Of a DNA stretch of 20,000 nt, positions 95-5,450 are shown piece after piece. The DNA is from an uncultured virus (IMG/VR IMGVR_UViG_3300027127_000005) (Duplodnaviria > Heunggongvirae > Uroviricota > Caudoviricetes). The translations under genes and the position numbers were made by a program. The notes under the pieces are model-generated. The model ran no database searches, was not told the origin of the DNA, and was given only the letters and a program-made list of their open reading frames with translations. Location of the stretch: the IMG/VR virus record IMGVR_UViG_3300027127_000005, positions 51,416 to 71,415 of that record. One strand, given 5' to 3'. Each line of letters begins with the position of its first letter. Position 1 is the first letter of the stretch.

Positions 95-166
95 TTGGAA
101 TAGTGAGATTTGAACTCACGACTTCTGCGTTATCAGCACAGCACTCTACCACTGAGTTATATTCCA
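95..166 (-). tRNA. trnI: tRNA-Ile(GAT)
   Basis: Acceptor TGGAATA/TATTCCA, anticodon arm CTGTG-CT GAT AA-CGCAG, T arm GTGAG-TTCAAAT-CTCAC. No encoded CCA. Confidence 0.95.
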
Positions 167-171
167 TTATG

Positions 172-326
172 TGCCCTTGGTGGGGAATGATCCCACTCTC
201 AATAGACTTGAGGTTTCGTACAAGAAGTACCCTTACGAGGGGAATCTTATCAGTGTGGGTTCAGCACACCTATCTAAAACTACTTTGTCAAGTTGAACCC
301 TATTTCACCGTCCCAACGGCAAGGGC
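172..326 (-). ncRNA. tRNA-like structured RNA of unknown class, 155 nt
   Basis: 7-bp acceptor-like stem GCCCTTG/CAAGGGC plus A, T-arm-like GTGGG-ATCATTC-CCCAC, short D-like hairpin CCGT-TGGG-ACGG, and a ~100-nt internal domain with pseudoknot potential. Sits flush between tRNA-Phe and tRNA-Ile. Confidence 0.75.
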
Positions 327-329
327 AAG

Positions 330-403
330 CGGGAACAGTCGGATTTGAACCGACAACACCAAGATCTTCAATCCTGTGCTCTACCAATTGGAGCTATGTT
401 CCC
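330..403 (-). tRNA. trnF: tRNA-Phe(GAA)
   Basis: Acceptor GGGAACA/TGTTCCC, anticodon arm CAGGA-TT GAA GA-TCTTG, T arm GTCGG-TTCAAAT-CCGAC. Confidence 0.95.
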
Positions 404-754: not shown

Positions 755-1348
755 CTAGGTCAAATGAGAATAAAGATTATTCAAATAATCTTTTTTGTCT
801 TCATCCGAAAGTTTTTGATAATGTGCCCATCTAACTCTAATAGTTTCAATACCTAATGATTTTAGATATTCATCTCTATAAAAGTTAGACTTAACTATCC
901 TTTCATCCACATAATGCTGTTCTCCATCTATTTCAAGAGCAATATCTCCGATACGGAAATCAATACTATAAATTGATACTGGTTGCTCCGAAATAAAAGA
1001 AACTCCTTTATCTAATAACCACTTTTCAAAATAACTTTCTGGGTAAGATTGTCCTTTCGAATAATGATTAAGTTTATAAGGAACTTTATCTGGATTTTCT
1101 TTCAGATAGTTTTTTCTAGCAATAGAGATTTTTTTCTTTGTTTCCTCAGTTAGTGGGTGGCTTGGCGCAAGTTTGCGTGCCTGACTCTTATTTCTGGAAA
1201 CAAAATCACCTCGTTGTTTTGCTTTGCATAGTGTAGCAGATGTGACTCCATATTTATTTTGGAGTTTCTCCCAAGTCATACCATCATTATGGTCCTTTTG
1301 AATAAGAGACCAATCATAACGTTTATGATATTTTGATTTGTTTTCCAT
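755..1348 (-). CDS. Free-standing putative homing endonuclease (HTH + NUMOD3-like + DUF559/Vsr-like nuclease domain)
   Basis: N-terminal HTH-like segment, NUMOD3-like HPLTEETKKKISIARK, and C-terminal IDF..IALEIDGEQHY..RDEYL..LGIETIRV typical of DUF559/Vsr-like nucleases. Inserted between tRNA-Lys and tRNA-Tyr. Confidence 0.8.
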   Translation of the reverse strand: MENKSKYHKRYDWSLIQKDHNDGMTWEKLQNKYGVTSATLCKAKQRGDFVSRNKSQARKLAPSHPLTEETKKKISIARKNYLKENPDKVPYKLNHYSKGQSYPESYFEKWLLDKGVSFISEQPVSIYSIDFRIGDIALEIDGEQHYVDERIVKSNFYRDEYLKSLGIETIRVRWAHYQKLSDEDKKDYLNNLYSHLT

Positions 1349-4423: not shown

Positions 4424-4766
4424 TGCGAGTAGGGAGACTTGAACTCCCACGGGCAATGCCCAACAGATTTTCTTACCACTATAGTTTTCACTACCCTTTC
4501 GGTTTGTGGTCTGGACTATACCTTCACCATACCTTTCAGTTTAGGTGTTCCCCGTCTAGTCTCTACACGTTTTGCATTTTCTAGATAATTCCAACCCTCT
4601 CTAGAAGCACATTGGGTAGCCGTTGTCTTTCCAACTGTCTTGCAACTTCGCTCGGTATTGCCATTTTACAGGTTTCACCGAATTTGAGGAATTACACTCA
4701 TAAGGTTTCCCAAATGAGGCTCAATTTTCATAAGTCTGGTGTGTCTACCGATTCCACCATACTCGC
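4424..4766 (-). tRNA. trnL: tRNA-Leu(TAA) split by a group I intron (exon 1 4766-4732, exon 2 4471-4424)
   Basis: Exon 1 GCGAGTATGGTGGAATCGGTAGACACACCAGACTT and exon 2 AAAATCTGTTGGGCATTGCCCGTGGGAGTTCAAGTCTCCCTACTCGCA join into a cloverleaf with anticodon T^AA and a Leu-type variable arm. Confidence 0.93.
4472..4731 (-). ncRNA. Group I intron, 260 nt, cyanobacterial/plastid trnL(UAA) type, no ORF
   Basis: Follows exon U and ends in G. P1 CUU/GAG with U.G pair, P2 CTCATTTGG-GAAA-CCTTATGAG, P AAATTCGGTGAA, Q AATACCGAGC, R GTGTAGAGACTAGA, S AAGGTATAGTCC (P7 GACTA/TAGTC). Confidence 0.92.
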
Positions 4767-4778
4767 TTGTATGAGACC

Positions 4779-4807
4779 ATTATAACTCAAAGAATCATAA
4801 TAGTCAA
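4779..4807 (-). promoter_or_regulatory. Sigma70-type promoter for tRNA-Leu
   Basis: TTGACT-N17-TATAAT ending 12 nt before the tRNA 5' end. Confidence 0.8.
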
Positions 4808-4808
4808 G

Positions 4809-4881
4809 TGCTCGTTACTGGGATCGAACCAGTCTATCAGGTCTTATGAGGACCGCGCTTTCGCCAGAGAGCTAAACGAGC
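4809..4881 (-). tRNA. tRNA with CAT anticodon (elongator Met or Ile2)
   Basis: Acceptor GCTCGTT/AACGAGC, GGTC-CT CAT AA-GACC, T arm ACTGG-TTCGATC-CCAGT. The 1:72 pair is closed and there is no 3GC anticodon stem, so not an initiator. Confidence 0.88.
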
Positions 4882-5291
4882 GTTTGTAGAAACTCTCCCC
4901 AACTATTACCATAATGAATTATATGATGACAGTTGTGGCAAAGAAGATCGCATTTATCTACTTCTTCTTTAATAGTATCCCATTTTCTATTAGCAAAAGA
5001 TCTCCCATCAAGTTTTAATTCTTTTTGGGAAGGATCTCTGTGGTGAAAGCATAGTGTTGCAGGTCTATCTTCACCACAAGTTTGGCACTTACCACCTTTA
5101 TATTGAAGTGCTTTCCATTTATTGGAATATGCACGTTCTTTTTGTTCGGTATAAGTATTTCTATTCACAACACAAGGATCATTTCTATACCTCCACCTTT
5201 GACGACAGGTTTCATTGCAATAAAGTTTTGCTCTTCCACCCTTTCTTTGGTGTTGTGGAACTTCTTTTCCACACGATTTACAGTTAATCAT
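4872..5291 (-). CDS. Free-standing HNH endonuclease with N-terminal Zn-finger-like motif
   Basis: CKSC...CNETC, then CQTC...FHHRDP...CDLLCHNCHHIIH. Start re-called downstream of late promoter TATAAATA (5318-5325); ATG 5312 is an alternative. Confidence 0.85.
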   Translation of the reverse strand: MINCKSCGKEVPQHQRKGGRAKLYCNETCRQRWRYRNDPCVVNRNTYTEQKERAYSNKWKALQYKGGKCQTCGEDRPATLCFHHRDPSQKELKLDGRSFANRKWDTIKEEVDKCDLLCHNCHHIIHYGNSWGEFLQTLV

Positions 5292-5362
5292 TTGTGTTAT
5301 GAAGATATACATACACCTATTTATAATAGATGCATTCGCTATTCGCAAATAACGAATAGCAA

Positions 5363-5450
5363 TACGAGTGCCTGGATTCGAACCAGGTCAAAGCCGCTAA
5401 TCTGGCGGAAAGAGTTTATAAGACTCCTCTGACTACCAAGTCTCACTCGC
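5363..5450 (-). tRNA. Atypical tRNA with TAT anticodon (Ile), 88 nt
   Basis: Acceptor GCGAGTG/CACTCGT, D arm GACT-TGGT-AGTC, extended anticodon stem GAGGAGT-CT TAT AA-ACTCTTT, variable arm CCGC-CAGATTA-GCGG, T arm CCTGG-TTCGAAT-CCAGG. Confidence 0.85.

What the first reader, a model, noticed from the sequence alone, without database searches (positions are those of the whole stretch)
172..326. tRNA-mimic RNA with a pseudoknotted domain in place of the anticodon arm
Seen on the minus strand: acceptor stem GCCCTTG/CAAGGGC-A, mini D hairpin CCGT-TGGG-ACGG and a 5-bp T arm with variant loop ATCATTC. In the anticodon-arm position is helix AATAG/CTATT followed by ACTTGA/TCAAGT, separated by a 6-nt bulge GGTTCA. 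That bulge is exactly complementary to TGAACC in the loop of the internal hairpin GTGTG-CTGAACC-CACAC, giving a pseudoknot. A further stem (TCGTA/TACGA or GTAC/GTAC) follows. The element is spaced like a tRNA, 3 nt after tRNA-Phe and 5 nt before tRNA-Ile. It lacks the G3:U70 pair and tag ORF of tmRNA, and lacks group I P7 motifs. Inference: a processed phage ncRNA that mimics the tRNA elbow, for example a decoy for anticodon nucleases or a ribosome- or synthetase-binding RNA.
Basis: partly seen in the sequence, partly recalled or inferred. Interest (0 to 1): 0.85.

Follow-up and report, generated by a model that had tools for sequence, protein, structure and literature searches.

The report
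Cyanophage tRNA-shelled RNA with conserved core
A virus of cyanobacteria carries, among its tRNA genes, an undescribed 155-base RNA that has the outer shell of a tRNA but a strongly conserved folded domain where the anticodon should be; it turns up as a separate RNA in river samples, and its job, like that of the similar-shaped RNAs of phages T4 and T5, is still unknown.

Summary
Real and expressed, but of a known kind. Window 326-172 (minus) lies in the tRNA array of a T4-like cyanophage and has no Rfam match. 18 distinct versions keep a tRNA shell (acceptor stem, small D arm, T arm; compensatory changes; T-loop swapped for canonical ones) around a 100-nt domain that is 97% identical while flanking tRNAs are 83%. 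The anticodon-position helix and a distal hairpin covary; the pseudoknot is complementary in 18 of 18 but has only one wobble change, so it is plausible, not proven. Three river metatranscriptomes cover only this element (depth 31-130), two ending at the same base by the acceptor 3' end, with no splice joint. It is not tmRNA (the phage has its own), nor a recognisable intron or ribozyme. It is accessory: the Phe-Ile slot of relatives is empty or holds two other unrelated RNAs. Closest kind: T5 RNA1/RNA2 and T4 RNAC (same plan, no homology, function unknown). Best guess: the shell gives processing and stability, the core binds a host protein, perhaps a defence RNase. The scan noted tRNA look-alikes on other phage DNA before.

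The parts
172..326 (-). Whole RNA gene, 155 nt, tRNA shell plus inserted domain
   Evidence: single copy in the 71-kb contig; RNA contigs 175-309, 181-308, 175-302
320..326 (-). Acceptor stem, 5' strand (7 bp with 173-179)
   Evidence: 96% of cells paired, one both-sided change
172..179 (-). Acceptor stem 3' strand and discriminator A (172); next base C in all versions, CCA not fully encoded
   Evidence: A in 18 of 18; following base
308..319 (-). Reduced D arm; two interchangeable forms, both with a GG
   Evidence: 15 of 18 hairpin form, 3 of 18 second form
300..304 (-). Helix in the anticodon-stem position, 5' strand (pairs with 201-205)
   Evidence: outer pair A-U in 8, C-G in 8 of 18
294..299 (-). 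6-nt bulge, complementary to 258-263 (proposed pseudoknot)
   Evidence: 100% paired in 18 of 18, one G-C to G-U change only
288..293 (-). P2 helix 5' strand (pairs with 206-211)
   Evidence: 100% paired, wobble-only changes at 4 of 6 pairs
270..287 (-). Near-invariant A/U-rich joining strand; partner uncertain
   Evidence: 0 of 17 columns vary at element positions 41-57; rival pairings
253..269 (-). P3 hairpin whose loop pairs with the bulge
   Evidence: 100% paired, one wobble change
225..248 (-). P4 hairpin, conserved base and variable, covarying tip
   Evidence: two both-sided changes; tip 75.7% mean identity with indels
212..224 (-). Near-invariant joining strand J4/2
   Evidence: 2 of 16 columns vary at element positions 100-115
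201..211 (-). 3' strands of P2 and of the anticodon-position helix
180..196 (-). T arm, 5 bp and 7-nt loop; loop ATCATTC here, canonical TTCG-type loops in 3 of 18
   Evidence: the same ATCATTC loop occurs in ARAGORN-called phage tRNA-Phe, -Ile and -Thr
330..403 (-). Upstream neighbour tRNA-Phe(GAA)
   Evidence: 5' neighbour in 15 of 18 versions
95..166 (-). Downstream neighbour tRNA-Ile(GAT)
   Evidence: 3' neighbour in 15 of 18 versions

Best explanation
A stable, trans-acting phage RNA built as a natural tRNA scaffold. Step 1 (inferred from position; 3- and 5-nt spacers): it is co-transcribed with the tRNA array. Step 2 (inferred from the conserved acceptor stem, T arm and discriminator; end position partly seen in RNA data): host tRNA-processing enzymes (RNase P, 3' trimming, probably CCA addition) release it as a discrete 155-160 nt RNA and the shell protects it. 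Step 3 (shown by contigs): it accumulates uncut and unspliced. Step 4 (inferred from an invariant core that includes unpaired strands, inside a variable shell): the compact, probably pseudoknotted core is an aptamer-like surface that binds one conserved host protein. Step 5 (guess): that protein is most likely a host anti-phage RNase or toxin that the RNA titrates, as pseudoknotted RNA antitoxins and phage antitoxin mimics do. Steps 1-3 about 0.85; the whole chain with a defence-protein target about 0.35.
For: Shell kept by structure, not sequence: 7 both-sided changes, T-loop and D-arm swaps. Core 96.8% identical against 83.4% (tRNA-Phe) and 83.2% (tRNA-Ile) over 45 pairs of the set found by the T arm alone; the P4 tip inside the same RNA has drifted to 75.7%, an internal control against mere recent transfer. 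RNA contigs in 3 studies cover the element alone, depth 31-130, adapter joined at 175 in two, no joints. Accessory and exchangeable: of 20 related loci with tRNA-Phe before tRNA-Ile(GAT), 6 have an empty slot, 4 this RNA, 6 and 4 two unrelated structured RNAs; absent from 20 of 20 related records searched whole, 5 of them at least 90% complete; carriers are 100, 100, 68 and 64% identical in a marker protein while non-carriers are 88 and 85%, a patchy pattern typical of arms-race cargo. No neighbouring phage protein tracks it. The same contig carries an abiF RNA beside tRNA-Arg (48.8 bits) with no Abi_2 protein found; AbiF toxins are neutralised by a non-coding RNA (PMC12737573, passages), type III antitoxins are pseudoknots (PMC12283969, passages) and phage PhiTE escapes ToxIN by an RNA mimic (PMC3475682, abstract).
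Against: No binding partner or target was identified; step 5 rests on analogy. The core matches no known antitoxin RNA in Rfam. The contig is 32% complete, so a phage-encoded partner or an AbiF gene may lie elsewhere. Most homologs were found with core patterns, which inflates core identity (controlled only for the 9 IMG/VR contigs found by T arm). RNA evidence is from assembled contigs, without strand or true ends, and 310-326 is not covered. The core fold has no both-sided covariation.
Confidence: 0.35

Rival explanations
1. Translation-machinery effector: a tRNA mimic that is aminoacylated or stays uncharged and binds the ribosome, EF-Tu, a synthetase or RelA, the pseudoknot standing in for the anticodon-codon helix.
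For: Full acceptor stem, discriminator A in 18 of 18, T-loop and D-loop GG kept; it sits among about 25 tRNAs and a two-piece tmRNA; the bulge places U-C-A at roughly the anticodon position, paired in cis with a U-G-A (by inspection).
Against: Acceptor pair 5 is broken in 4 of 18; the 8-9 linker and D stem are abnormal; no complementarity to a cyanobacterial rRNA operon beyond shuffles (10 nt WC against 8-12); no conserved tag frame.
Confidence: 0.25
2. The core is catalytic (a new self-cleaving or trans-cleaving ribozyme) or a small intron that is removed to leave a tRNA.
For: Invariant joining strands in a compact pseudoknot; strand order bulge-P2-...-loop-P4-J4/2-P2' resembles HDV-like ribozymes (recalled, by inspection); at 90% threshold ARAGORN reads 3 of 18 versions as tRNA(UCA) with an intron.
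Against: No Rfam ribozyme or intron hit at E up to 10, while the true group I intron of the window scores 58.8 bits. At default score 0 of 18 are called and relaxed calls disagree on the anticodon. No joint in RNA contigs that span the core. No insert-free gene with the same T arm and acceptor among 35 loci or the same 5' shell among 9. The HDV P3/P1.1 arrangement is not present. A cut near 299/300 is not excluded: contigs pass it by only 3-10 letters.
Confidence: 0.12
3. Ligand- or ion-binding RNA (riboswitch-like fold or conformational switch) acting on processing of the tRNA array or as a metabolite sponge.
For: Competing folds within a few kcal/mol use the same invariant strands, as in switches.
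Against: Not upstream of any protein gene; flanked by tRNAs; relatives process the same array with an empty slot; no riboswitch hit.
Confidence: 0.13
4. Functionless or selfish hitchhiker: a decayed tRNA with an insertion, spread recently by recombination between arrays and stable only because it is folded.
For: Narrow family (92% mean column identity), patchy and dispensable; no distant homolog found.
Against: Compensatory changes in four helices and replacement of the T arm by other valid T arms; core far more conserved than the hairpin tip in its middle and than the neighbouring tRNAs.
Confidence: 0.15

Closest known systems
Phage T5 RNA1 (144 nt) and RNA2 (125 nt), 'tRNA-like stable RNA with unknown functions' (NC_005859 annotation)
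   Same: Inside a phage tRNA array; predicted acceptor stem, D-like arm and T arm with the anticodon arm replaced by a larger domain; similar size; function unknown.
   Different: No sequence or covariance-model match; their inserts fold as simple stems with no pseudoknot seen in the minimum-energy fold; canonical T-loops.
Phage T4 RNAC (species 1 RNA) and RNAD (NC_000866; PMC3014915 and PMC9697503, passages)
   Same: Small stable RNAs from the tRNA region of a T4-like phage, late-expressed, roles unknown; RNAC ends in a T arm and an acceptor-like 3' end.
   Different: No homology; RNAC has long simple hairpins and no D arm in its predicted fold.
tmRNA (RF00023, RF01851, RF04321)
   Same: tRNA-like domain with reduced D arm closing a pseudoknotted insert.
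   Different: No G3:U70, no conserved tag frame, half the size; the same phage has a separate two-piece tmRNA.
GOLLD and ROOL RNAs (PMC12286853, passages)
   Same: Abundant phage RNAs of unknown function, often beside tRNA islands, pseudoknotted.
   Different: Those are 600-800+ nt and form cages; no tRNA shell of this kind; no Rfam hit.
RNA antitoxins and phage mimics: ToxI/pseudo-ToxI, tenpI, AbiFr
   Same: Small folded or pseudoknotted RNAs with conserved single strands that bind a nuclease; functional analogy only.
   Different: No tandem repeats, no adjacent toxin gene, no Rfam match; carried in a tRNA shell.

Membership tests
tRNA-like stable RNAs of phage tRNA arrays (T5 RNA1/RNA2, T4 RNAC; an informal kind) | Lies in a phage tRNA array with tRNA-like spacing | tested here: met
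tRNA-like stable RNAs of phage tRNA arrays | Acceptor stem and T arm kept, anticodon loop replaced by a larger domain | tested here: met
   T5 folds
tRNA-like stable RNAs of phage tRNA arrays | Accumulates as a discrete stable RNA | tested here: met
   contigs of 3 studies; strand and exact ends not shown
tRNA-like stable RNAs of phage tRNA arrays | Sequence homology to T4 RNAC/RNAD or T5 RNA1/RNA2 | tested here: not met
   only weak tRNA-shell scores on ordinary tRNAs
tRNA-like stable RNAs of phage tRNA arrays | RNase P processing and CCA addition | not testable with these tools
   no raw reads offered
tmRNA | G3:U70 alanine identity pair | tested here: not met
   C3-G70 in 18 of 18
tmRNA | Conserved tag reading frame ending in a stop; covariance-model match | tested here: not met
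   true tmRNA elsewhere
Decoding tRNA, with or without intron | 7-nt anticodon loop directly or after removal of one intron; insert-free relatives; splice joint | tested here: not met
   0 of 18 called at default score, inconsistent relaxed calls; no joints; no insert-free form
Group I intron | P7/R/S core and RF00028 match | tested here: not met
Known small ribozymes in Rfam 15 (hammerhead, HDV-like, twister, pistol, hatchet, glmS and others) | Covariance-model match | tested here: not met
   E up to 10 on 168 bases
Small ribozymes | Self-cleavage | not testable with these tools
   contigs show intact core but cannot exclude partial cutting
Bacterial Y RNA (YrlA), manA, wcaG, abiF, GOLLD, ROOL | Covariance-model match | tested here: not met
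   wcaG and abiF do ring elsewhere in related loci, showing the scan works
Type III RNA antitoxins | Tandem pseudoknot repeats upstream of a toxin gene | tested here: not met
   single copy, flanked by tRNAs
Type III RNA antitoxins | Binds and inhibits a nuclease | not testable with these tools
   needs experiment

The most novel reading that the evidence does not exclude
The invariant pseudoknotted core is a new class of ribozyme (or other active RNA machine) that the phage delivers inside a tRNA scaffold, and phage tRNA arrays are docking sites for a set of interchangeable RNA effectors, the RNA counterpart of anti-defence gene islands; three unrelated RNAs share this one slot.
Probability: 0.12. 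Interest if true: 0.9.

Novelty: new variant of a known kind. Interest (0 to 1): 0.57.

Why it matters
The tRNA-like stable RNAs of T4 and T5 have had no assigned function for decades. This family adds what those lack: natural variants showing that the shell is a replaceable carrier and the insert is the selected part, presence as a discrete RNA in river communities, and a slot that closely related phages leave empty or fill with other RNAs. That turns a vague 'tRNA mimic' into a short, synthesisable test object (shell swaps, core mutants, pull-downs) and suggests that cyanophage tRNA arrays hide several undescribed RNA genes. If the core inhibits a host defence nuclease it would be a new form of RNA-based counter-defence.

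Tried and rejected
Rfam: whole window, the 168-base stretch, and three divergent homologs gave nothing for the element. BLAST against 50,697 phage records: only tRNA flanks or 22-24 nt chance matches; S-SRM01 lacks it. GTDB genomes: 0 of 23 pattern hits were homologs. tmRNA-like tag: one frame begins like cyanobacterial tags but has no conserved stop; the short frame that ARAGORN proposes at relaxed score is only 5 codons. Hammerhead, HDV, K-turn and sarcin-ricin motif readings were tried by eye against recalled consensus and did not fit in all positions. Antisense to rRNA (one Nostoc-genus operon, not the likely host) or to the phage contig (longest match 12 nt): chance level. Linked phage protein: none exclusive to carriers among 69 ORFs within about 14 kb. 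My first register for the P4 tip (helix 9, 64% paired) was wrong and was replaced. Literature: ten searches, including four exact motifs of the element (0 papers), found no description; the tables of the Fremin 2023 viral RNA catalogue (PMC10690425) had no hit, but its alignment archives and PDFs could not be read, so it may be listed there as an unnamed candidate.

Full report
Setting. The window is the end of a 71,415-base virus contig, 32% complete. Its CobS-like ATPase has best matches in Synechococcus myoviruses at about 72% and it encodes a cyanobacterial-type tmRNA, so it is a T4-like cyanophage (inference). The element lies in a minus-strand array of about 25 tRNA genes, between tRNA-Phe and tRNA-Ile.

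Observation. Rfam gives nothing for the stretch, either in the whole window or alone at E up to 10, and ARAGORN does not call it.

Homologs. Pattern scans of IMG/VR found the same nine contigs by independent anchors: 8 of 55 loci with a pseudoknot pattern, 9 of 35 with the T arm alone, 9 of 10 with the joining strand, 5 of 11 with the flanking tRNAs alone, 9 of 22 with a relaxed core pattern, and 7 of 9 with the 5' shell, plus one cut at a contig end. A metagenome scan gave 17 of 70 loci, some of them the same contigs. After removing duplicates there are 18 distinct versions including the window's. None was found in cultured phages or GTDB genomes (0 of 23 hits). The family is narrow: 92% mean column identity.

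Structure. On these 18 rows the model (acceptor, D hairpin, anticodon-position helix, bulge-loop helix, P2, P3, P4, T arm) has 97.1% of cells paired and 7 of 46 pairs with both-sided changes; no shuffle of 500 reaches this and slid controls give 36-45% (relatedness of rows is not removed by the shuffle). The clearest change is the outer pair of the anticodon-position helix, A-U in 8 and C-G in 8. The T arm occurs in six sequences, three versions having canonical TTCG-type loops, and the D arm in two forms, so the shell is kept as a shape. The window's odd T-loop also occurs in ordinary phage tRNAs. In the core, P2, P3 and the bulge-loop helix are 100% paired but vary only by wobble changes: six substitutions, all pair-keeping. 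The minimum-energy fold of the single sequence differs (-49.6 against -42.2 kcal/mol for the fold constrained to P2 and P3, to which the bulge-loop helix would add roughly -6 before loop costs), and RNAalifold offers further rivals; the 3' partners of the minimum-energy fold fail in homologs (70-72% paired). So the pseudoknot is the best-fitting model but is unproven.

Where selection acts. Among the ten sequences found through the T arm, the core is 96.8% identical against 83.4% for tRNA-Phe and 83.2% for tRNA-Ile of the same contigs (45 pairs). Over all 18, the P4 tip in the middle of the core is 75.7% and the 3' shell 85.3% identical. Unpaired strands of the core are the least variable. This is the reverse of what a pure elbow mimic predicts.

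Expression. Four metatranscriptome runs were laid (of 22 listed). Three river runs from three studies have contigs on 175-309 (depth 48.6), 181-308 (87-130) and 175-302 (31.4) with no mismatch, and no same-strain cover of the flanking tRNAs; two end at 175 in adapter sequence, three bases from the discriminator. The fourth has one low-depth contig, 37-270, running through tRNA-Ile (precursor or DNA). No joints were seen. These are contigs, so strand, true ends and level are not shown, and tRNAs are commonly lost in such libraries (own knowledge); still, cover confined to the element in three studies fits a discrete stable RNA better than DNA carry-over.

Distribution. Eighty loci fetched with a neighbouring 65-aa protein contain the element in 4. 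Of the 20 in which tRNA-Phe precedes tRNA-Ile(GAT), 6 have a 1-3 nt spacer, 4 this RNA, 6 a 118-119 nt RNA and 4 a 138-166 nt RNA, unrelated to each other (several loci are near duplicates). Twenty non-carrier records searched whole, five at least 90% complete and including the closest non-carrier, have no copy elsewhere. No nearby protein is confined to carriers. It is an optional, horizontally exchanged cassette.

What it is not. Not tmRNA (C3-G70 in 18 of 18; no tag; separate tmRNA). Not a group I intron or a known ribozyme. Not an intron-split tRNA as far as testable: relaxed ARAGORN calls disagree on the anticodon, no joint, no insert-free relative. No antisense match to rRNA or to the phage beyond chance.

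What it resembles. T5 RNA1 and RNA2 are annotated as tRNA-like stable RNAs of unknown function inside the tRNA array and fold with an enlarged anticodon domain (the T5 lead came from earlier finding e1-5732831). T4 RNAC and RNAD come from the tRNA region and have unknown roles (PMC3014915 and PMC9697503, passages). None is homologous. GOLLD and ROOL are larger tRNA-island RNAs (PMC12286853, passages). Known cyanophage RNAs listed in PMC9964418 (passages: abiF, wcaG, manA, glnA, CfrI, PhotoRC-II) do not match. The tRNA arrays with variable spacers of PMC10910872 (passages) are a different, protein-linked arrangement. Ten literature searches found no description; unreadable supplements of PMC10690425 may list it.

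Mechanism. Shown: conserved shell and core, discrete RNA, optional presence. Inferred: release by host tRNA processing and protection by the shell; a binding surface in the core. Guessed: the partner is a host defence RNase or toxin, by analogy with pseudoknotted antitoxins and phage mimics (PMC12283969 and PMC12737573, passages; PMC3475682, abstract) and with the abiF RNA that these phages also park beside a tRNA. I give this 0.35, a translation-factor or ribosome target 0.25, a neutral hitchhiker 0.15, a ligand-binding switch 0.13 and a catalytic or intron role 0.12.

Verdict. A real, undescribed RNA family; a new, pseudoknotted variant of the phage tRNA-like stable RNAs. Interest 0.57: solid anatomy and field expression, but the kind is known, the function is open and no cultured carrier was found.

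Noticed in passing
L301:9061-9179 (also L302, L303, L307, L308, L319): A different 118-119 nt structured RNA (three hairpins) fills the same tRNA-Phe/tRNA-Ile slot; no Rfam hit in L319.
   Followed up: partly
L376:7270-7432, L342:10977-11142, L313:10141-10278, L315:3786-3923: A third RNA, 138-166 nt, in the same slot: 9-10 bp closing stem plus A, multibranch interior with a 7-nt-loop hairpin, visibly variable between phages; no Rfam hit in L315 and L376.
   Followed up: partly
L307:7169-7346, L310:3393-3531, L319:8876-9115, L305:800-984 and similar: Other gaps of these tRNA arrays (Asp-Glu, Asn-Thr, Arg-His) hold recurring G+C-richer stem-closed elements with no Rfam family in the loci scanned.
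   Followed up: no
G000:C1:48568-48861 (-), outside the window (L216:1094-1347): Phage-encoded two-piece (permuted) tmRNA, tag ANKIVAFSRQTALV*, Rfam cyano_tmRNA 84.9 bits; similar tags in L298-L303.
   Followed up: partly
G000:C1:13524-13560 (-): abiF RNA motif 4 nt upstream of tRNA-Arg(TCT), with no Abi_2 protein in the contig; same placement in L305, L310, L315, L316.
   Followed up: partly
window 4445-4780 (-): tRNA-Leu-like gene interrupted by a group I intron (Rfam 4490-4741, 58.8 bits), missed by ARAGORN.
   Followed up: no
window 755-1348 (-) and 4872-5348 (-): Protein genes inserted between tRNAs: a weak DUF559/REase-like nuclease (below cut-off) and a 158-aa ORF with no Pfam hit that recurs in many related arrays; possible homing endonucleases.
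   Followed up: no
window 5363-5450 (-); G000:C1:51149-51221 (-): Unusual tRNAs: an 88-nt tRNA with TAT anticodon and long variable arm, and a tRNA-Thr with AGT anticodon.
   Followed up: no
window 247-282 (-): One reading frame of the invariant core holds four stop codons within 12 codons, ending in tandem TGA TAA; may be chance.
   Followed up: partly
L218 and L220, just upstream of tRNA-Pro (also L221-L224): Small H-type pseudoknot-like element before tRNA-Pro in other viral contigs, with apparent covariation between two forms; no Rfam hit.
   Followed up: no
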